Part shown: piece by piece, positions 3,892 through 56,640 of the stretch
How the letters are laid out: every line of letters starts with the position of its first letter
How positions within the stretch are numbered: the first letter of the stretch is position 1
From: Rhynchobatus australiae
Taxonomy: Eukaryota
Direction: 5' to 3'
DNA: 64,000 nt
NCBI GenBank assembly: GCA_034780895.1
Contig: JAUZTB010000057.1
Location: forward strand, 23,209,451-23,273,450
The notes under the pieces: generated by a model
What the model was told of the DNA's origin: nothing
The model's input: the letters and a program-made list of their open reading frames with translations, nothing else
Databases searched by the model: none
Made by a program: the position numbers and the translations under genes

Positions 3892-4090
3892 CTGCAAAAT
3901 CAAGCCCTTTATCAACATGTTTAACTCTGTAATGTGCTCTCAAGATGACAGGATCCTGGTAGGCTTCGGTCACACTACAAAAGGGACAGTGCATGTGGCT
4001 ACCTTTAGGATTAGCAGAACATTTCTCATCCTGGCAGAGAACTGGGTTGTAGTTATGCTCTGTTCCTTTAACCCTCACTGATGGATGAGT
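3892..4090 (-). CDS. Internal coding exon of an uncharacterised zinc-finger protein (THPSVRVKGTEHNYNPVLCQDEKCSANPKGSHMHCPFCSVTEAYQDPVILRAHYRVKHVDKGLDFAG)
   Basis: Acceptor ttttatacacag|ACT at 4091 and donor GCAG|gtaagg at 3891. Open frame of 199 nt with C-x4-C, H-x-H-C-x2-C and H-x4-H spacing. Its phase-0 start matches the phase-0 end of exon 8122-8174. No next exon was found in 1-3891. Confidence 0.85.
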
Positions 4091-6359
4091 CTGTGTATAA
4101 AAATCAAGGTAGAAAACATGATTAGAGAAATGTAATTTAAACCCCCACTTCAAAANNNATTCAGTTGTCAATACAATATTTTTGATGTTACAGTACACTC
4201 TCATTCAGTTCAATTTTTGAAACAAAATATGTAGACTATGGTGAGATGGGGAAAAAAAATGGCACACATACATAAAACGGGGATTGCACATCAGAGATCA
4301 AAAGGGATACCAGGGTAGCAGGCACTTTATTTCAGCTGGAGAGGCGCTGGAAAGGGATAGAACTCAAGGCAAAAAAATTGAATTCTTTTTGAAAGAAAAT
4401 TAATTTGGATGCACTCATGCTTAAGTGGAGAAATCTAAGGCACCATCCAGTACTGAAATCCTTTCACTGCGTCTGTGCTGTCAACCAATTTGTTTAAAGT
4501 TGTGAAATTGTAAAGCTGAGAGTTGTCAAAATACAGAGCCTCCCATCTTCAGCTGAATTTTCAGATGTAGTTGAGAAACGAGTTTTGGACTGATCTTTGG
4601 AAAATTTGAGACATGACGTGAAAAAAAGCGTAACTATCATTAGCAATGCTCAGGCTGTGACCCAGTAAGTGAAAAAGCAGCCAACAAAAGGCTGTTCCAC
4701 TCAGCTAGAAAAGCAAGTGGCTTTGATTAGGATGTTGTAATCCACATTTCATATTGTAGGTTAGAGAGGTCAAGGAGAGCAAAGGACTATGCTTCCCAGT
4801 CCGAGTCACAGTCATGTGGGATTTAACTTTGAATTTTGATTTATGCCGCTTTAGTATTGAATCAGAGAGAAAAATCAGATGGGAAAAGATTCAATAATGA
4901 AGCTGATGGCAAGACAAGATTGAATTTGACACTTTGACATGATCAAGGATCACAAAGGACAGGTGATCAAAGATGAGAAGAGGAGGTAGCCTGCAAGTTC
5001 AATGGGTTTGAGGGCAGTATTTTTGAGTTGGGATGATGACAGCAGTTCCTAAAAGATGGCAGTACGTGAGGAAAAGAAACCATTTCTTGTCAGTGAGTAT
5101 GGGGGCCAGTAAGGGAAGTTGTGTTTCATAATTTGGTAAGAATTGAGTTGAGAAAGCAGGATATAGGTCTAATAGACATGTGCAACATTAACAGGATGAA
5201 GCGAGGAAAATGTTGGTTCAGAGGTAGGACAATAGAGCAGAAACAGCCAGGTTAATGGGGTCTATATCTTAGTGACACTGAAGTCCATGAACTCCATTTG
5301 TTTGCTGCAAGAGAGATTAAAATTCTCAGTAACAGCTGTTGCACATACTGGATTCTGGTTAATTTTGTTGGAGTGAAAATCCACACTGCATAGAGAGATA
5401 CAGGAGATTGTTACTAAAATATTAGATTCATTTGATTTACTAAAATTTTTAACTGCCCAACTGTCAAAAATTATATTTGCAATTTGGAAGAAAAATGTTT
5501 CCATTAAATGAACTCCATTAAGCTGAATTTCTTCTCTGTAAACTAAACAACCTAAATATATCCCTGTTGACAATCTTCACCTTCACAGAAATTCACTGAT
5601 TAATTTCTCGATGCAGACTTCCATGCTGTTATTTATAATCTGGGATTTCTAAACATGTTATCCATTTTTAAATTTTAAGTTTTGCTTTTCCGTAATTGGA
5701 TTAATGGAACATTCATTTCTCACTCATTAACTGAGAAAACAGCATCATTACAATGGATTATCAATTTTATTAAGAGTATTTGAAAAATGAAATATCTAAA
5801 ACTGCCCACTGAAAGTTGTATAAGGTCACCATGATGACTGGCACTTCTAAAGTACAGTGCAACCTCAATATAATGCAGGAGACAGCTTTAACACCTGTAT
5901 TATAAGTTATCCAACTATCATCATTTTTAAAATTTTATAATTAAACCATCACATTTGTCTTTGCTTTTGGAACTGTTATGTTTCATTTGAGAAAGGCAAG
6001 TCCAATTCAGCTCATGACCAACTGATCAATATTTTCTGAATCATTGACAAAATAATGGCAGCGTCGTCAACAGAGGTGTCAAGCTACATTTATTCACTAA
6101 TAACCAGTTATCGATGCCCAATCTCAATTTTGCAGCACTCTTTTACAATCCTAATCAAAGCCTTCTGCAAACGTTGACCAAAGAGCTGAATTCCAGAGCA
6201 GAGGTGAAAGTGACTGCCCAGGACGTCAAGGCAGCATTTAGCCAAGTGCATCAAGAAGCCATGATAAAACTGAAGTTAATGGCCACATGGGAAACAACTC
6301 CAATAGTCAGAGTTATACCTTGCACAAAAGAAAGATGGTTGCATTTCAGAATTCAGATT

Positions 6360-7485
6360 TAGAATTTGCTGGAGGTCAATAATTCCAGCCACAGGAGATC
6401 GTCAGGGCATTGTCCTAGGCTCAATTATCTTTAGTTGCCTCAATGACCTTCTTTCCACCATAACGGCAGAATAGGGATGTTCACTGGTACTTTCACAATA
6501 CTCAACTCTCTTCACAACTCCTCTGCAGATGAAGCAAGTCCCCGACAACATTCAAGTAACTTTCATGCCACACAAGTGCCTGGTACCAACTATCTCCAGT
6601 CAGGAAGTCTACCCAGCTACACTTGACATTCAAGGGCATTACCATCACTGAGTCCCCCACCTACAACGTCTTGGGGTGGGGTGGGGTGGGGGTGGTGGCC
6701 TTAAATACTGGGCCACCTAAATACTAAGAATACTGAGCCAGGTCTGAGAGCAGGTATCCTGCAATAAGTAACCACTCCTGACATTCTCCTTACGTCCACG
6801 TGGGTTTCTTTCAGGTGCTCCAGTTTCATCCCACCTCCCAAAAACGTAAAGATTGGCATATTAATTTTTAATTGGCCACTGTAAATTACTCCTAGTGTAT
6901 CAATTAGTAGTAAAAATCCAGTGAAAGAAGGACAAAGAGAGTAACATTGGCTATGGTAGGATTAGTGTAAAAATGAATGCTTAATGGTCAGCACAAACTT
7001 GATGGGCCAAAGGGCCCATTTCAGTGTTGCCTCCATGGCTCTACCCCAAAGGCTTTCCACAAGGCACAATTTAAGAGCATGATGGAGTATTCTCCCCTTA
7101 CTGGCATGACTGCAGCTCCTATGAGGAATCTCAACACATTCAACATCCAAGACAATTTACAGTGGCCAATTAAAAAATTAATATGCCAATCTTTACGTTT
7201 TTGGGAGGTGGGATGAAACTGGAGCACCTGAAAGAAACCCACGTGGACATAAGGAGAATGTCAGGAGTGGTTACTTTTTGCAGGATACCTACTCTCAGAC
7301 CTGGCTCAGTATACTTACTTGGTACCAAATCCACCGCCCTAAACATACATTCTTTCCACCATCACGCACAGTGATTGCAACTGTGTACGATTTACAAAAT
7401 GCATTGCAGTTACAGGCTCAGACCACTCCAACAGCACCAGCCAAATCCATGAGTTCTATGAATAAGAATGTCACTAGGCGAGGAT
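6360..7485 (+). mobile_element. Decayed LINE fragment interrupted by a 5'-truncated SINE (about 6785-7040) and an inverted duplication
   Basis: Colinear similarity to 35560-36510; the SINE body (cacgtgggtttc...ggtgctccagtttc...cccac) matches the other SINE copies. Confidence 0.7.
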
Positions 7486-8121
7486 GCNNNNNNNNNNNNN
7501 NNNNNNNNNNNNNNNNNNNNNNNNNNNNNNNNNNNNNNNNNNNNNNNNNNNNNNNNNNNNNNNNNNNNNNNNNNNNNNNNNNNNNNNNNNNNNNNNNNNN
7601 NNNNNNNNNNNNNNNNNNNNNNNNNNNNNNNNNNNNNNNNNNNNNNNNNNNNNNNNNNNNNNNNNNNNNNNNNNNNNNNNNNNNNNNNNNNNNNNNNNNN
7701 NNNNNNNNNNNNNNNNNNNNNNNNNNNNNNNNNNNNNNNNNNNNNNNNNNNNNNNNNNNNNNNNNNNNNNNNNNNNNNNNNNNNNNNNNNNNNNNNNNNN
7801 NNNNNNNNNNNNNAATATTAACATCAAATCAAATGGTCATTAATCTTGTTTTCTGTTTATTGATTGCATAGCGTTCAAATTGGCTGCCATGCTTTCCTGT
7901 ACACCAAGAGATTGCATGTTAAAAATAATTCACTGGTTATGAAACAATAGGATAATCCGAGGACTAATGAAAAGCAAAGTAAGCAGAGCATTTTCCCCCT
8001 TATGTTCAATCAAAACTATCACCCTGTATTTTCCATTCAGTGCAAAAGGGATGGTGCTTGCCATCTACTTCAAAGAAATTAGTTCACAAAGCTTATGTGG
8101 GCTACATAGCACGTACTTTAC

Positions 8122-8136
8122 CTTTCCGGGTATCAT
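8122..8136 (-). CDS. Probable first coding segment (MIPGK) of the zinc-finger gene, within a 53-nt exon at 8122-8174
   Basis: Acceptor tcttgactttgccag at 8175 and donor GGAAAG|gtaaag at 8121. ATG in aaaATG context at 8136-8134. Splices in frame to 4090, giving MIPGKTHPSVRVKG. Confidence 0.65.
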
Positions 8137-8409
8137 TTTCTGTATACCACCTTCCAGCACAGTGATATCACCATCTGGCAAAGTCAAGACTTTTCACAGA
8201 AAGTAAACCAGGAAATAAAAGAAATGCACCTTTTTATATATTTACTGAGAAAGAAATAAAGACTGCTACATATAGACAGGGATAAAATGGAAGCTGAAAT
8301 ATAAACATTGTTTTTAAAAAACATGGAATTAGGAAATATTTATGCTAAGCCAATTATATTCCTGGTATAATACCAATTTTGGAGTTTAGCAGTAATTGTG
8401 AAAAAAAAA

Positions 8410-8804: not shown

Positions 8805-9188
8805 AGGTGCTCGAGAGAGTGGTGGACTCTGCCTAATACATCACAGACACATCCCTCCCCATCATCGGTAGTATCTACAGGAGGTGCTGCCTCAAGAAGG
8901 TTATATCCATCATCAAAGATCCCCACCATCCAGGTCATGTCATCTTTTCACAGCTACCATTAAGCAGGAGGTACAGAAGCCTTAAGTCCCACACCACCAG
9001 GTTCAAGAACAGCTACTTCCCTTCAACCATTCACTTTTTGAACCAACTAGCAAAACCCTAATTACCTCTACAGTTTAGCAACACTATGACCACTCTGATC
9101 ACTTTGCAATAAATGGACTGCTTTTTTCTTGTAAAACTGGTGTATAATATTTATGTTTTTCTTGTGAATGCTGCTTATATGCCTATGA
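8805..9188 (+). mobile_element. Retroelement 3' fragment (catcaaagatccccaccatccagg...accaccaggttcaagaacagctacttccc); related tail at about 21335-21525
   Basis: Recurrent dispersed repeat; family not firmly assigned. Confidence 0.55.
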
Positions 9189-12100
9189 NNNNNNNNNNNN
9201 NNNNNNNNNNNNNNNNNNNNNNNNNNNNNNNNNNNNNNNNNNNNNNNNNNNNNNNNNNNNNNNNNNNNNNNNNNNNNNNNNNNNNNNNNNNNTAAAAAAT
9301 TCTAGGCTACTGTTGCATTTGTTGCCATTCTTATTTTGCCACTTCAATTCTCAAAGTCTTAAAAAAAACAGTAAAACATTTACTTCACTGAACAGCTACA
9401 AGTTATAGATATATATTCAAATACTTCATAAACATAAATTCAAGCAGACTTCCTTATACAAAGATTATGAAGCATATAAACCTATTGCCATTTTGTGACA
9501 GTTTCTCTAACTCAAAGCAAATTATGGCATTCTTCTGCAAAGTACATTCAACTATTCAAGTTCTACATGCATAATCCTTAAATTTTCATAAGAGCTATTA
9601 ACAAAAGTTTTTTTAAAAAAACGTCTTAATATGTTTACCTACCACTATATTGCATTATAGACTGTGCGCTATACCAGCATGTAGCTTTTAAAACTTTCAT
9701 TTAATAATAAATTTTCTATTTTGCATGAGACACATCCATGGCAAACAAAAGCAAAAATCACCTGTCAAAAGTTATTCTCAAAGCTAATATAGTTTTAATT
9801 TAGACTTTGCAAATGTCAGTTTTCAAACATGAAAATCTCTTGACAGATGTCAGTTCACATTTAAGTTAAAATGACATCCTAGACATATGTAAATTTCTAC
9901 TATGCACAGTGAATTCCTCAACTACAATCACGAACAGATTGTAGCACAGGTAAAGGCTAGTATTCTTTGATTGCATTTATCAAATAAGGTGACAATGCAA
10001 TAAGTTATTGTGAATGTGAACTGGGGTGGGGGTGGGGGTGGGGTGGAGATGAAGAGGAATAGTGGGGAGGAGAATACTATGATTTTGCCTGACAAGTGGT
10101 AGGGAGAATATTTCCACAGAGATTCAAACCTAAAGCCTGCACAAATATAAAGCAGTGATGGTGCTTGCATGGAATACAAATTCAAATAGACATCTGTCGC
10201 AACAAATGTATTTTATCTCTAACCACTGGTCCCTAACAAATATTCAGAACAGATCAGACGTTTTAAGAAGTTTAAATCCATTTTTGGATCCAGTCCAACT
10301 GTTCTTACCAAGGCAATTTCCATGAGTAGCTGCAAAATATCTCGGAAAGAGATAACAACAACTTTCCCCTTTGAAGCTTTACTCCACAGTTACTTGACTT
10401 GTCCTCTAAGCTTACCATATATCTATCTATAACAGTTTATGTCTATCACCTGTTTCCAACAATTAGAAGATCACGTTTCATGAAGATGCAATCTTGAAGG
10501 TAAATGAAGCTTTTTACTTTTTCATGGTCTAAGGGATTTGGTGACAAAACAGGCTTTATTACTTGTCCATAATTATCCTTCAGAACCTGGGGCTGAGCTG
10601 ACTTTAGTGGTTTGATCCAAATGAGCTGCTTATGAGGCCATTTTCAGAAGATATTCAGGAGTCAACCATATAGCTGTGGTCCAGAGCCACAAATAAACCA
10701 GATCAGGCAACGGCAGATTTCCTTCCTTCAAGGCTATATGTAAACTAGATGAAATTTTTACAATATCCCATAATTACACAATTGCTATTGCTAATAGGAC
10801 NNNNNNNNNNNNNNNNNNNNNNNNNNNNNNNNNNNNNNNNNNNNNNNNNNNNNNNNNNNNNNNNNNNNNNNNNNNNNNNNNNNNNNNNNNNNNNNNNNNN
10901 CTGAGTTCCTCCAGCACTTCTTGTGTATTGCTCCAGATTCCAGCATCTGCAGAATATTTTATGTCTGAGAACCTTCCTTTGCGTTTGCTGCTGTGCTGTG
11001 ATCTGAATGGATCTGGTTTCTAATGTTCTCTATGATTCAAGCAGCTGCTTTTATTTCATGAGATGGGCAGTTTGTATTTTTTTTCAATGTGTTATAAATA
11101 TTCTAGAATTGCCTACTTTACTGCAGTAAAATGGGTTAGAGAGAGGCAGAAATGTAGTGCAATCTTCTATCTCCTGGTGAGTGTAGAGAATACACATAAG
11201 ATTAAACAAGTTTCTATTGTCTTCTTTCTATGAAGCACTTATCACCACTTTAAAGATGGTTAGAAAGTAAAAATAGTAGTTTGGGTATCAGATATTGGTT
11301 GCCAGATTCAAGGAAAACAGATGTCACCCAAGAAATAGTGAGGGTCTGGAATTCACAGCCCCGGAGGGAAGTAGGAGGAGGAGCTCTTTTCACATCTGAT
11401 GACCATTTAATGAGCAATAGCCTGGGAGCTGTGGACCAGGGCCTGGGAAGTGGAGAGCTGGTTATTTATTGTCCCATTGGTCACCTATTTCCAGCTTAGA
11501 AGGAGATCAATGAGCTGTTATTACCAGTCTTGAGGCACTAACTTAATACTTTCCGAGATAGGCTCCTGTGACTGGATTGTGTCTGTATCATTCAAGGTAT
11601 TGTTGAAGTTCAATGCAATGGTAAAATGTGGACATGAAATTGAATCTTGCTGCTCATGATTTGTAAAAATACTGCTTAAAATTAGTTAATAACATGATAA
11701 AATCTCCCTCTATTTTTAATTCACACTTGTTAACAAACAATGGAATTACAGTTATAAATATCTGAAAAACACACCAATAGGTGAACAACAGGTAAGCAAT
11801 AGGTAAAAACTACAGAATATTTCCTTGCCATTTACAAAATTGATAAGGATGAAAAAAAAGCATTTGGCCCCATCTTCAATAATCTATCTAGAGAAAACAT
11901 TCAGCTGTTTAAGAGATTCAGAAGTTTATTTTCTTTGTGATCATCCCTGGCTGCTGTGCGAAGCATGTCATGACACCAGTCCTAAACTTGAATCCACCTG
12001 TACTGAAGTATTGCTTTATATTTATCATTTGTAGAATACATTATAAAGTAATCAAGAGGTGGTCTGACAACTGATCAAGATTTTAGCACCTGAATTCTGT

Positions 12101-21559: not shown

Positions 21560-22230
21560 AACTCGGTCCTTCAGATGGCTGGGAGCAGCGCGGGAGGGTC
21601 GACCATAAACAATTGCAGAAGGAGAGAATAAAAATTCCTGCGCTTGCACCAGGGCGCTTTAACCTCAGTAGTGCCGAAGAGGCACTGAGTGGACAACGGG
21701 TCACCAGGGCAGGTTAGCGATCTGAGTAGGTGGCCCTGCACTGGGAACTAAAACCCACGGCGTTACATCTAAAGGGGTCTGGCAGGGATACCCGCCATTT
21801 TAGGAATGCCTCGCAGGCCGCACACACGGCGCCGGCCCGCTGCCCGCTCAGCCTGCACCGGGTACGGTACTCACAATGAAAGCTGTCATATCCCTCCTCC
21901 AATTCCGAGCGGGACCCCCCGCTCCACCATTTGGCGGTTTATTGGTTAAAAAGTCAGCATCACCTCCGCCGACTTCATTTTGTGTGTGCTCGTCATCGGA
22001 TTCAACCCAACGGCGAACTCTGACTACGTCATCTTCGGGCGGACCGCAGAACAACCCGAGCCCGAGCTTCGGCTCCCGCTCCGAAAGGAGCCGAATCAGC
22101 GTCCGGCTCTCCCGAAGATTTACGAAGTTGGCACGAAGGCTCGCCGGGTCTCTCAGTGCTTGGCGCCGCACTCGGAGTCTGCAACTTGCAACAGAATCTA
22201 TTTGTGTCGACTGGCCAAGGTTATATTAAC
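21560..22230 (-). promoter_or_regulatory. CpG-island promoter and probable first (largely non-coding) exon of the minus-strand zinc-finger gene
   Basis: GC/CpG-rich island in AT-rich surroundings. Minus-strand donor CATT|gtgagtac at 21874, CCAAT (attgg at 21941-21945) and a YY1-type motif ccgccatttt at 21792-21801. Linkage to the 8.1 kb exon is inferred. Confidence 0.6.
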
Positions 22231-29216: not shown

Positions 29217-29223
29217 TATAAAA
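29217..29223 (+). promoter_or_regulatory. TATA box of NEFH
   Basis: TATAAAA about 50 nt upstream of the ATG at 29273, in a locally CpG-containing segment. Confidence 0.75.
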
Positions 29224-29272
29224 GGCGCAGCCTCCTCCCTCGCTACTGCAGTGCAACTCTTCCTTCCACACG

Positions 29273-30313
29273 ATGAGTTACAGTCTGGATACAATGTTCG
29301 GCACCAGCTCCTACCGCAGGATACTGGGGGACTCACCCCGGCCCGCGTCCCGCTCCGCAGGCTCTTTAGCAAGTAGCGGCTTCCATTCACAGACCTGGTC
29401 CCGGAGCCCCAGCACAATTACCTCCTACAAACGGGTTACCCCAAGCCTGACTGCCAACTTCAGCTCTCAGATCACAGCCTCAACCGAGAGCCTGGAATCC
29501 GGGGCCATAAATGGAGACATTAGATCGCGCAACGAGAAGGAGATGCTACAGACCCTGAACGATCGCTTCGCTACTTATATCGACAAGGTAAGGAACCTAG
29601 AGCTTCAGAACAAGAGTCTGGAGGCAGAGGCCGCTTCCCTGAGGCAGCAGCAAGCCGGCAGATCGGCCATAGGGGAGCTGTACGAGAGAGAAATCAAAGA
29701 CCTGCGCAATGTAGTGGTGCAGATTAGCAATGACAAGGCGCAACTACAGCTGGAGCAGGAACACCTGGAGGAGGACATCCAGCACATCAAGCAGAGATAC
29801 GAGGATGAGAGCAGGATGAGGGAAGAGATCGACGCCAGTATCAGAGCCCTGAGCAAGTACATTGAGGATGCGGGCTTGACAAAGCTAGACTTGGACAAGA
29901 AGCTCCGTTTCCTCACCGACGAGGCTTCTTTCATGAAGGCGAATCACGATGAGGAAGTTCGAGATTTGCTGAATCAGATCCAGGGCTCACAGGTAACTTT
30001 GGAAGTGAGGGATTCTTTGAAGTCTGATATCACGGCGGCTCTCCGAGAGATCCGAGCGCAGATGGAAGGTCATGCAGTCAAGACCACCAGTCAGACCGAG
30101 GAGGTGTTCAAAGTGAAGCTCGAGAAACTCAACCAAGCCGCCAAGGTCAACACCGACGCCATCCACGCAGCCCAGGATGAAATCTTAGAGTATCGCAGAC
30201 ATCTGCAGTCCAAGAACACCGAACTGGAGACGCTGAAGGGGACAAAAGACTCATTGGAGAGGCAAAGGATTGAGATGGAAGACAGACACAATGCGGATAT
30301 TTCCAGCTACCAG
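29273..30313 (+). CDS. NEFH: Neurofilament heavy chain, exon 1 (head and most of the rod)
   Basis: Intermediate-filament LNDRFATYIDKVR motif. AAKVNTDA...KDSLERQR...EDRH.ADI.SYQ matches the recalled NF-H rod. Donor TACCAG|gtagtc at 30314. Adjacent to THOC5 as in mammals. Confidence 0.93.
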
Positions 30314-30576
30314 GTAGTCTTTGGTTACTTCTCTCAGTTTTCACAATAGACGATGTTTAAAAAATCCTAATTGCATTTATTTAACATGCAAAACCGACTT
30401 TGAGAGTAGCGTATATATGTTCTATTAGCTATAAGTCAGTCAAAGTTTAATACACGCCGGTGTCCTCAAATTCCCAATGCTAAATGTTAATATACTAGAG
30501 TCATCTGATTACGAGTTTTACACCGTTTATAGGCTTAGTGTGGGTTTACATTTCTTTAAAATAATTAATGTTGCAG

Positions 30577-31500: not shown

Positions 31501-31807
31501 ATGTCCTTTAACTCTTGAGCCATCGCAGCAAACCTTGTCTGCAGAACTGAACAAAAGCAACAATGCCAGAAATATACAACAGATGAGTTGTCATCACAAA
31601 GAGGCATGGTATCTTCTTCCATTGCAACCCTATTTCTGTTTCATGAGGCAATGGTCTGCCACGCACTTCTACCATTTTAACTTCTGATGCACTTGTCCTC
31701 AATATTTTTCTTGTTGATCATTGATAACATAAGATTCAGAATTGTAAAGTATAAACAACAATCACGTTGGTAATAATGTATTACTATTGTCATCTTATTT
31801 TGTAAAG

Positions 31808-32863
31808 GAAACTTCTGGAGGGTGAAGAATCAAGATTTATTGGGACAAGTCCCTATTCTTCTATTGAAGGGTATCATAAAGTTCCCTCATTGCCAAACCA
31901 TATTAAACCCAAGCCTGATGAAACAGCCAAACCAACTGAAAAAGAGGCAGATGAAGTGGTTGCAGAAGAGCAAGTGGATGAGAAAGTAACTACAACTGAA
32001 GGAGCTAAAGAATCCGAAGAGGCTGAAGAAGAAAAGGAGGGGGAGGAGGAAGAAGAAAAGGAGGAAGCAGCAGAGGAAGAGGCTGGCAAAGCAGAATCCG
32101 AGGACAAACAAGAAACAAAACCTGATGAAGAAAGTACGAAAGAAGAAGACACTAAAAGTGAAAAAGCAGAGGAGGAAGAGAAAGGAAAAGAAAAATTAGT
32201 CGATGAAGAAGACGTGGAAAAGGGAAGCAAGGAACAAGCAGAGGAAAAGCCTGCCAAAGATCAAAAGGAACTAACGATAAAGGTGGAAGATAAAACACCA
32301 GAAGAACCCAAGGAGAAAGAAAGCCCAGAAAAGGAGCCAGAGACTAAAGAAAAAAAGAAGGAAACAGAGGAACCCTCTGAACTAGAATCTGAAACCAAAG
32401 AGAGAGAAGAGGAAAAGGAATCAAAAGTAGAACACAAGGATGAAGAAAAGGAAGATGCAAAACCAGAGCCCAAACCTGAAGAAAAAGAGGTGAAAAAAGA
32501 TGCAAAACCAGAGGCTAAACCTGAAGAAAAAGAGGCTAAAAAAGATGCAAAAGCAGAGGTCAAACCTGAAGAAAAGGAAGTGAAAATAGATGCAAAAGCA
32601 GAGCCCAAACCTGAAGAAAAAGAGGTAAAGAAAGATGCAAAACCAGAGCCCAAACCTGAAGAAAAAGAGGTGAAAAAAGATGCAAAAGCAGAGCCCAAAC
32701 CTGAAGAAAAAGAGGCGAAAAAAGATGCAAAAGCAGAGCCCAAACCTGAAGAAAAAGAGGTGAAAAAAGATGCAAAACCAGAGGCTAAACCTGAAGAAAA
32801 AGAGGTGAAAAAAGATGCAAAACCAGAGGCTAAACCTGAAGAAAAAGAGGTGAAAAAAGATGC
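31808..32863 (+). CDS. NEFH: Neurofilament heavy chain, exon 3 (KLLEGEE, Glu-rich segment and repeat tail); truncated by a gap, true stop unresolved
   Basis: Acceptor tgtaaag|G AAA CTT CTG GAG GGT GAA GAA. Open frame continues to the N-run at 32864-33474. Confidence 0.92.
32454..32863 (+). repeat. Coding minisatellite with a 45-bp unit (DAK[P/A]E[P/A/V]KPEEKE[V/A]K[K/I]); 9 full units plus the start of a 10th before the gap
   Basis: Unit gatgcaaaaccagagcccaaacctgaagaaaaagaggtgaaaaaa repeats at a 45-nt period. Confidence 0.95.
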
Positions 32864-56543: not shown

Positions 56544-56640
56544 CTGTGGCTGATCCTTCGGAAAATGCAGACCTCCAAGTTTCTGAACCCAAACATAGGG
56601 GTGTCCCAGCTCTCCAATGTAGTCACTAAAAGTTAAGATT
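56544..56640 (-). CDS. THOC5: THOC5 exon ([32 protein letters not shown])
   Basis: ttcgcag acceptor, gtaaag donor, 97 nt. Confidence 0.94.

What the first reader, a model, noticed from the sequence alone, without database searches (positions are those of the whole stretch)
3892..8174. Unnamed gene encoding a Castor-type (C2H2C2H2-like) zinc-finger protein next to NEFH
Seen: two phase-compatible exons give MIPGK|THPSVRVKGTEHNYNPVLCQDEKCSANPKGSHMHCPFCSVTEAYQDPVILRAHYRVKHVDKGLDFAG, with eight candidate metal ligands (C-x4-C-x7-H-x-H-C-x2-C-x14-H-x4-H). Known: this tandem C2H2C2H2 layout is the hallmark of Castor/CASZ1 fingers, which are rare in vertebrates. Inference: the protein is not CASZ1 itself, because the finger sits at the extreme N-terminus. 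I also do not recognise it as a mammalian neighbour of NEFH. It may be an ancient metazoan nucleic-acid-binding factor retained in cartilaginous fish and lost in mammals.
Basis: partly seen in the sequence, partly recalled or inferred. Interest (0 to 1): 0.72.

Follow-up and report, generated by a model that had tools for sequence, protein, structure and literature searches.

The report
Ancient transposon-related zinc-finger gene
This is a real, single-copy gene of a ray-like fish (the counterpart of the unstudied zebrafish gene zgc:193801) whose paired zinc fingers match those of a jumping-gene protein far better than those of Castor; it is likely a transposon part tamed early in animal evolution, likely binds DNA, and appears to be lost in mammals and birds.

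Summary
The finger exon (4090-3892, minus strand) is real; the proposed first exon is probably not the normal start. Orthologues begin MTAFI or similar, encoded at 21889-21875 in a CpG island; no stored relative contains MIPGK. The gene is the zgc:193801 orthologue: eight coding exons, about 514 aa, two double fingers, a coiled coil, an acidic tail and a C-terminal basic motif. It is single-copy, lies between AP1B1 and NEFH, and has orthologues in sharks, basal fishes, salamanders, turtles, crocodilians, amphioxus, echinoderms, molluscs and chelicerates. No mammal, bird, squamate or frog was among 111 named hits. It is not CASZ1, which lies on another contig. The finger pair scores 38-62 bits against N-termini of KDZ-type (CxC4) transposase-like proteins, against 6 or less for CASZ1 pieces, and shares an intron at the same glycine codon and phase with one such element. 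Best reading: an ancient domesticated transposon DNA-binding module that likely acts as a dimeric nuclear regulator; finger 2 carries a near-invariant Egr1-like R-D-E-K helix. Direction of transfer and function are untested.

The parts
21875..21889 (-). True first coding exon (MTAFI), phase-0 donor
   Evidence: matches the start of ray and shark orthologues
21700..22200 (.). CpG island around exon 1 (likely promoter; gene is head-to-head with NEFH, about 7.3 kb away)
   Evidence: GC 0.59, CpG o/e 1.00 against window 0.38 and 0.25
21886..21930 (-). Upstream ORF of 14 codons whose stop overlaps the main ATG
   Evidence: ray isoforms P0324, P0329, P0330 begin with the same first five residues and lack finger 1
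8122..8174 (-).
   Evidence: no RNA data
3892..4090 (-). Coding exon 2: invariant His7 and double finger 1; ends in the phase-1 intron shared with KDZ-type element L060
   Evidence: Exons 3-8 lie left of the window at G000:C57:23200848-23200658 (finger 2), 23194740-23194549, 23194258-23194109, 23187660-23187523, 23185105-23185013, 23181582-23181118 (runs into an N gap)
29222..30349 (+).
   Evidence: Pfam Filament E 4.7e-75
56544..56640 (-). Neighbour: THOC5 exon
   Evidence: E 6e-14 to THO complex subunit 5

Best explanation
This is a single-copy, intron-containing animal gene whose two double zinc fingers are homologous to the N-terminus of KDZ-type transposase-like proteins; it was likely domesticated from such a transposon before protostomes and deuterostomes split, and likely works as a nuclear, dimeric, sequence-specific DNA-binding regulator. 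Shown: gene structure, single copy, orthologues, homology of residues 1-125 including a shared intron, no CxC4 or catalytic part. Predicted: the fingers fold as one compact unit; residues 252-356 form a coiled coil that would dimerise the protein; the C-terminal basic motif would import it. Inferred: finger 2 (helix positions -1, 2, 3, 6 = R, D, E, K, like Egr1's R, D, E, R) would read a (G/T)CG triplet, so a dimer would bind paired CpG-containing sites; finger 1 (D, V, I, A) would pack or bind protein rather than read bases; the acidic tail would recruit cofactors.
For: Eight GT-AG exons give 481 stop-free codons, 97% identical to Pristis zgc:193801. One strong match for each finger exon in the genome; exon depth equals flanking single-copy depth in two contig sets. 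Finger-2 exon 86% and finger-1 exon 67% identical between a ray and 23 invertebrates, against 7-22% elsewhere. Family finger profile: 62.3 bits on P0233, 62.2 on L060, 37.7 and 39.0 on Actinostola P0297 and P0298, shuffle maxima 4.8-11.6; -1.0 and 5.8 on two CASZ1 pieces, inside their shuffle range. P0297 carries CxC4 above Pfam's cut-off and was found with P0233 as query; L060 was found with patterns outside the fingers. Same phase-1 intron in the F-A-G glycine in host and L060; CASZ1's finger exons break elsewhere. All named host-type hits are bilaterian, while a KDZ-type carrier is cnidarian. R-D-E-K in 204 of 214 stored finger-2 sequences; Egr1 helices. Basic motif in the last 30 aa of 37 of 40 orthologues. 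AlphaFold pLDDT 73-97 per block over residues 1-130 of orthologue P0172 with a 66-row alignment; long helix 252-356.
Against: Direction is not shown: the tree gives host (94/88, unstarred) and KDZ (97/81) as sister groups with an 8-changes-per-site CASZ1 branch, so capture by the transposon fits as well. Only three KDZ-type lineages were found; none was shown to be mobile (no terminal repeats seen; the two Actinostola copies could be haplotypes). On finger 1 alone CASZ1 (7.4, 7.9 bits) and Actinostola (8.2, 3.5) score alike. Only one canonical finger has base-reading residues, and there is no TGEKP-type linker. No binding, expression or phenotype data. CASZ1 was tested as two single-ORF pieces, not as the full spliced finger array.
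Confidence: 0.5

Rival explanations
1. An ancient host transcription factor of a Castor-like finger superfamily; KDZ-type transposons captured its two finger exons with their intron.
For: Ligand spacing and a 61-residue period like CASZ1's 58-61 (PMC10377389 passage); host finger 1 scores 14.7 bits on a CASZ1-unit profile, 0 of 300 shuffles as high; precomputed PF26743 on 1 of 120 rows and Atlas rank 2 at 0.92; a shared intron is what exon capture would give; clam paralogues show the family swaps domains.
Against: No non-bilaterian host-type hit among named rows, while a cnidarian holds the KDZ-type form; the KDZ fingers are more diverse among themselves than the host fingers; KDZ finger 1 also scores 11.4 on the CASZ1 profile, so the Castor likeness is not special to the host.
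Confidence: 0.3
2. A genome-defence factor: it kept the transposase's end-binding specificity and would sit on KDZ/Zisupton ends as a catalytically dead competitor; it is lost where those elements die out.
For: P0233 keeps R, D and K of the finger-2 helix; repeated apparent losses; only one weak KDZ-type hit in this genome.
Against: Near-invariance of the helix over all bilaterians (204 of 214) argues for a fixed host target, not an arms race; spiny-rayed fishes seem to lack the gene yet, as recalled from Boehne 2012 (not held), have recently active Zisupton.
Confidence: 0.12
3. The fingers serve as a protein- or RNA-binding unit in a nuclear adaptor rather than reading DNA.
For: Finger 1 has a hydrophobic, invariant helix face; the unit is predicted compact and unlike bead-on-string arrays (best VIA Z 3.0, rmsd 5.5, 58 aligned); CASZ1 fingers are needed for binding DNA-repair proteins (PMC4695013 passages).
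Against: Finger 2 has the classical base-reading R-D-E-K set; the module is basic (21 K+R against 11 D+E); transposase N-termini normally bind DNA (established for hAT, PMC8097297).
Confidence: 0.15

Closest known systems
Zebrafish zgc:193801 and its RefSeq 'uncharacterized' orthologues
   Same: This gene is the orthologue: 97% to Pristis, 91% to Mobula, 58% to Danio over aligned parts.
   Different: Nothing but species; no paper in the library names it (0 hits).
KDZ (Kyakuja-Dileera-Zisupton) transposase-like proteins with CxC4 (P0297, P0298, P0233, L060)
   Same: Colinear N-terminal 125 residues: early His, two finger units, F-A-G linker, same intron.
   Different: The host lacks the third C2H2, the SWIM-like (recognised by eye) and CxC4 regions and any catalytic part; it has a coiled coil and acidic tail, and is single-copy.
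CASZ1/Castor
   Same: Unit of C-x4-C-x7-H-x-H fused to a C2H2 finger, about 60-residue period.
   Different: Two units against 5-11; about 514 against 1166-1759 aa (PMC10696751); no PAR-binding motif; other intron positions; profile scores near shuffle level; separate locus in this genome.
CGGBP1 and ZBED-type domesticated transposon DNA-binding domains (PMC8097297)
   Same: Host gene made of a transposase's N-terminal zinc-finger module that Pfam misses; preference for CG-containing triplets (here only predicted).
   Different: Those come from hAT, many times and recently; this comes from a KDZ-type source, apparently once, at the base of Bilateria.
HMGXB3 (recalled as the vertebrate Zisupton-derived gene; PMC3424704 says only that such genes exist)
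   Same: Same transposon superfamily.
   Different: Recalled to keep CxC4 and the transposase core; this gene keeps only the N-terminal fingers.

Membership tests
CASZ1/Castor orthologue | Double-finger unit C-x4-C-x6-8-H-x-H-C..C..H..H (pattern read from this genome's CASZ1) | tested here: met
   Finger 1 fits; finger 2 has C-x3-C-x15-H-x-H in its first half
CASZ1/Castor orthologue | 5-11 fingers in a 1166-1759 aa protein | tested here: not met
   Two units, about 514 aa (PMC10696751)
CASZ1/Castor orthologue | PAR-binding motif between ZF3 and ZF4 (PMC4695013) | tested here: not met
   Absent here; present in a separate gene on contig C72
Castor finger family PF26743 | Profile match over cut-off | tested here: inconclusive
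   Model not in the library; precomputed hit on 1 of 120 rows; own 4-unit profile 14.7 bits for finger 1, 4.9 for finger 2
KDZ transposase (active element) | N-terminal finger module homologous | tested here: met
   38-62 bits, shared intron
KDZ transposase (active element) | CxC4 and catalytic region | tested here: not met
   No such Pfam match in 13 orthologues; no alignment to P0297 beyond the N-terminus
KDZ transposase (active element) | Multiple genomic copies | tested here: not met
   One strong match for each finger exon; single-copy depth
KDZ transposase (active element) | Terminal inverted repeats and 8-bp target duplication (PMC12730594) | not tested
   Gene spans over 50 kb with many N gaps
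Domesticated transposon gene | Single copy, intact frame, strong conservation across distant taxa | tested here: met
   (amino-acid identity; dN/dS not computed)
Domesticated transposon gene | Nested within the transposon family in a rooted tree | tested here: inconclusive
   Sister groups, unreliable root, three KDZ rows
Domesticated transposon gene | Same locus across species | not testable with these tools
   Only this genome is held; shared exon borders in invertebrate fragments support orthology
Sequence-specific C2H2 transcription factor | C-x2-C-x3-F-x8-H-x3-H finger with base-reading residues at -1, 2, 3, 6 | tested here: met
   Finger 2: R, D, E, K in 40 of 40 and 204 of 214
Sequence-specific C2H2 transcription factor | Tandem array with short TGEKP-type linkers | tested here: not met
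   The two C2H2 halves start 61 residues apart
Sequence-specific C2H2 transcription factor | Measured DNA binding and nuclear action | not testable with these tools
   Needs PBM, SELEX or ChIP

The most novel reading that the evidence does not exclude
One of the oldest transposon domestications in animals: a KDZ transposase's end-binding finger pair was turned, in the bilaterian ancestor, into a CpG-reading dimeric transcription factor that stayed almost unchanged for over 550 million years and was then dropped separately in mammals, birds, squamates, frogs and spiny-rayed fishes; the Castor finger itself would be a still older offshoot of the same transposon module.
Probability: 0.25. Interest if true: 0.75.

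Novelty: new member of a known kind. Interest (0 to 1): 0.52.

Why it matters
It gives an unstudied, extremely conserved gene a testable origin and mechanism. Zebrafish and axolotl keep it, so a knockout and a binding motif are within reach. If the domestication holds, it adds a KDZ-derived DNA-binding factor at the base of Bilateria and links Castor-type fingers to transposases. The apparent repeated loss in the best-studied lineages explains why it was overlooked and poses a clear question about what made it dispensable.

Tried and rejected
Pfam scans of the exon and of 13 orthologues gave no finger family at cut-off; 'TAPT1 homolog', 'MZT2', 'centromere protein F' and 'mucin' names on some hits look like coiled-coil or low-complexity mislabels and were not followed. 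No RNA holder listed; the two runs laid cover introns evenly and gave no splice joints, so neither junction was tested with reads. PDB sequence search with the full profile gave only coiled-coil noise. Fold searches: none at E<=0.001 for either model; VIA gave generic coiled coils for the full model and only 9 weak C2H2 matches, best Z 3.0, for the finger model; this does not show a new fold. No KDZ-type relative in viral contigs. The weak second hits in the own genome (L002, L019, L020) are a chance frame, a stop-ridden frame and an ordinary C2H2 finger. No homodimer prediction was obtained. Earlier-findings look-ups returned nothing. Literature: 'zgc 193801' 0 papers; Castor-motif searches unhelpful; KDZ and domestication listings showed no title or abstract on this gene. 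Virden 2012, Christine 2008, Iyer 2014 and Boehne 2012 were not held, so the published definitions of the Castor para-finger and of Zisupton's fingers could not be checked; no supplements were read.
Full report
Observation. The exon at 4090-3892 (minus strand) is as described, with the eight ligands at the stated spacing and normal splice sites. It has 131 homologues at E<=0.001, many named zgc:193801. Most orthologues from rays to molluscs begin M-x-[AT]-F-[IV]-[TA]-H-P-S, no stored protein contains MIPGK, and MTAFI is encoded at 21889-21875 before a phase-0 donor in a CpG island. The 53-nt stretch at 8174-8122 has good splice signals and is the only such candidate in the intron; if included it would stop translation after 18 codons. 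No RNA run was listed, so this stays open.

The gene. The window is G000:C57:23209451-23273450. With 150 kb of neighbouring DNA, eight GT-AG exons give 481 stop-free codons, 97% identical to the 514-aa Pristis protein; the last 33 codons were not found and probably fall in the N gap that cuts exon 8. The layout is two double fingers (1-125), a low-complexity linker, a predicted helix at 252-356, an acidic tail and a basic C-terminal motif in 37 of 40 orthologues. Each finger exon has one strong match in the genome. Neighbours are a Ras-family exon (RASL10A by recall), AP1B1, then this gene, a neurofilament gene and THOC5. The same neighbours are listed in human 22q12 (tables in PMC10613852 and PMC4256931, passages seen); that RFPL1 fills the AP1B1-NEFH gap in humans is recalled.

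Distribution. An alligator query (residues 1-136) gave 190 hits; of the best 120 shown, 111 carry names, and they run from crocodilians, turtles, caecilians, salamanders, coelacanth, chondrichthyans and non-acanthomorph fishes down to molluscs at about 74% identity, with no mammal, bird, squamate, frog or spiny-rayed fish. The 70 weaker rows were not shown and 9 rows are unnamed. A profile search of 1.84 billion representatives gave 151 hits; I looked up names for 25 of the 150 listed and found amphioxus, echinoderms, molluscs and chelicerates, no mammal, insect or cnidarian, but many are unnamed fragments. Loss in several lineages is therefore likely, not proved. Finger exons are 67% and 86% identical between a ray and 23 invertebrates, the rest 7-22%. 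Invertebrate exon fragments start and end at the same borders.

Castor or not. CASZ1 was located on contig C72 by a motif scan and recognised by the PAR-binding motif quoted in PMC4695013. So this gene is not CASZ1. The resemblance is real but weak: finger 1 scores 14.7 bits on a profile of four CASZ1 units (0 of 300 shuffles), finger 2 scores 4.9 (4 of 300). The family's two-finger profile gives -1.0 and 5.8 bits on two CASZ1 pieces, inside the shuffle range.

The transposase link. One outlier of the profile search, P0233 (E 5e-12), matches finger 2 and continues with an unrelated Cys/His-rich region. Its one longer relative among 1901 candidates, Actinostola P0297, carries Pfam CxC4, 'associated with KDZ transposases', above cut-off, and its first 125 residues align with both fingers, the linker and the invariant His7. 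A third lineage, L060, was found in metagenome contigs by patterns outside the fingers. The family profile scores 62.3 (P0233), 62.2 (L060), 37.7 and 39.0 bits (P0297, P0298), shuffle maxima 4.8-11.6. P0233 was selected by this profile; the others were not. L060 has a phase-1 intron in the glycine of F-A-G, exactly where the host gene has one; with about 375 possible positions and two or three host introns this has a rough chance of about 1% (my estimate, ignoring splice-site bias). Against over-reading: on finger 1 alone CASZ1 and Actinostola score alike; none of these proteins was shown to be mobile; and a tree of 37 rows leaves host and KDZ as sister groups with an unreliable root. I favour domestication because the KDZ form occurs outside Bilateria and is the more diverse, while named host-type hits are all bilaterian.

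Mechanism. AlphaFold with a 66-row alignment models residues 1-130 of an orthologue with high confidence; no solved structure matches well. Finger 2's second half is a classical C2H2 finger whose positions -1, 2, 3, 6 are R, D, E, K in 204 of 214 stored sequences; the exceptions are clam paralogues, Limulus, the P0233 pair and one fragment. Egr1 fingers 1 and 3 have R, D, E, R (sequence) and, by established knowledge, read GCG, so a (G/T)CG triplet is predicted. Finger 1 has D, V, I, A and probably does not read bases. One reading finger is too little alone, so the coiled coil would supply a second copy. All of this is inference; rivals are exon capture from a Castor-like host factor, a transposon-end blocker, and a protein- or RNA-binding adaptor.

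Verdict. A real, annotated but unstudied gene. No paper in the library names it, and listings for KDZ, Zisupton and domestication searches showed nothing on it. It is best filed as a new member of a known kind, host DNA-binding proteins built from a transposase's N-terminal fingers (compare CGGBP1; PMC8097297, abstract and introduction seen), with an unusual source, age and loss pattern. Papers seen as passages only: PMC10696751, PMC4695013, PMC10377389, PMC12730594, PMC3424704, PMC7325037. Interest 0.52.

Noticed in passing
P0107, P0169, P0176, P0177 (Mercenaria), P0193 (Mactra), P0192 (Mya): Clam paralogues, several with neighbouring locus numbers, carry an N-terminal ALS2CR8/CaRF domain above Pfam cut-off; three of them have lost the R-D-E-K helix of finger 2. 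The CaRF domain is recalled as a transposon-related DNA-binding domain.
   Followed up: partly
window 21930-21886 (-): Upstream ATG; here a 14-codon uORF whose stop overlaps the main ATG, while annotated isoforms of three other rays use the same start in another frame and skip the finger-1 exon. A six-G run may be a one-base difference or an assembly error.
   Followed up: partly
window exon 3892-4090; isoforms P0323, P0332, P0164: Ray isoforms splice out the second half of finger 1 by an inner donor, leaving only its first Cys pair before finger 2.
   Followed up: no
G000:C72:24.25-24.31 Mb (L036, L053-L059): CASZ1 of this genome; three late finger units lie in one exon.
   Followed up: yes
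G000:C55870:183-679 (L052): The only CxC4/KDZ-type match found in this genome, on a 757-bp contig, one stop inside: HMGXB3 exons or a relic.
   Followed up: no
P0206, P0207, P0336-P0338 (Patiria miniata): Several short gene models holding finger 1 on two scaffolds: possible local duplications in a sea star.
   Followed up: no
window 31806-32860 (+): Neurofilament tail with a regular KKDAKxExKPEEKEx repeat in place of the KSP repeats recalled from mammals; runs into an N gap.
   Followed up: no
window 8827-9228 and 6800-7400: Very high-copy repeats in intron 1 (summed contig depth up to 4.5e5); 6897-6800 and 7182-7300 look like inverted copies of one repeat.
   Followed up: no
window 21848-22225 (-): 125-codon open frame upstream of and including MTAFI without an in-frame ATG; coelacanth models extend the N-terminus over a similar region.
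   Followed up: no
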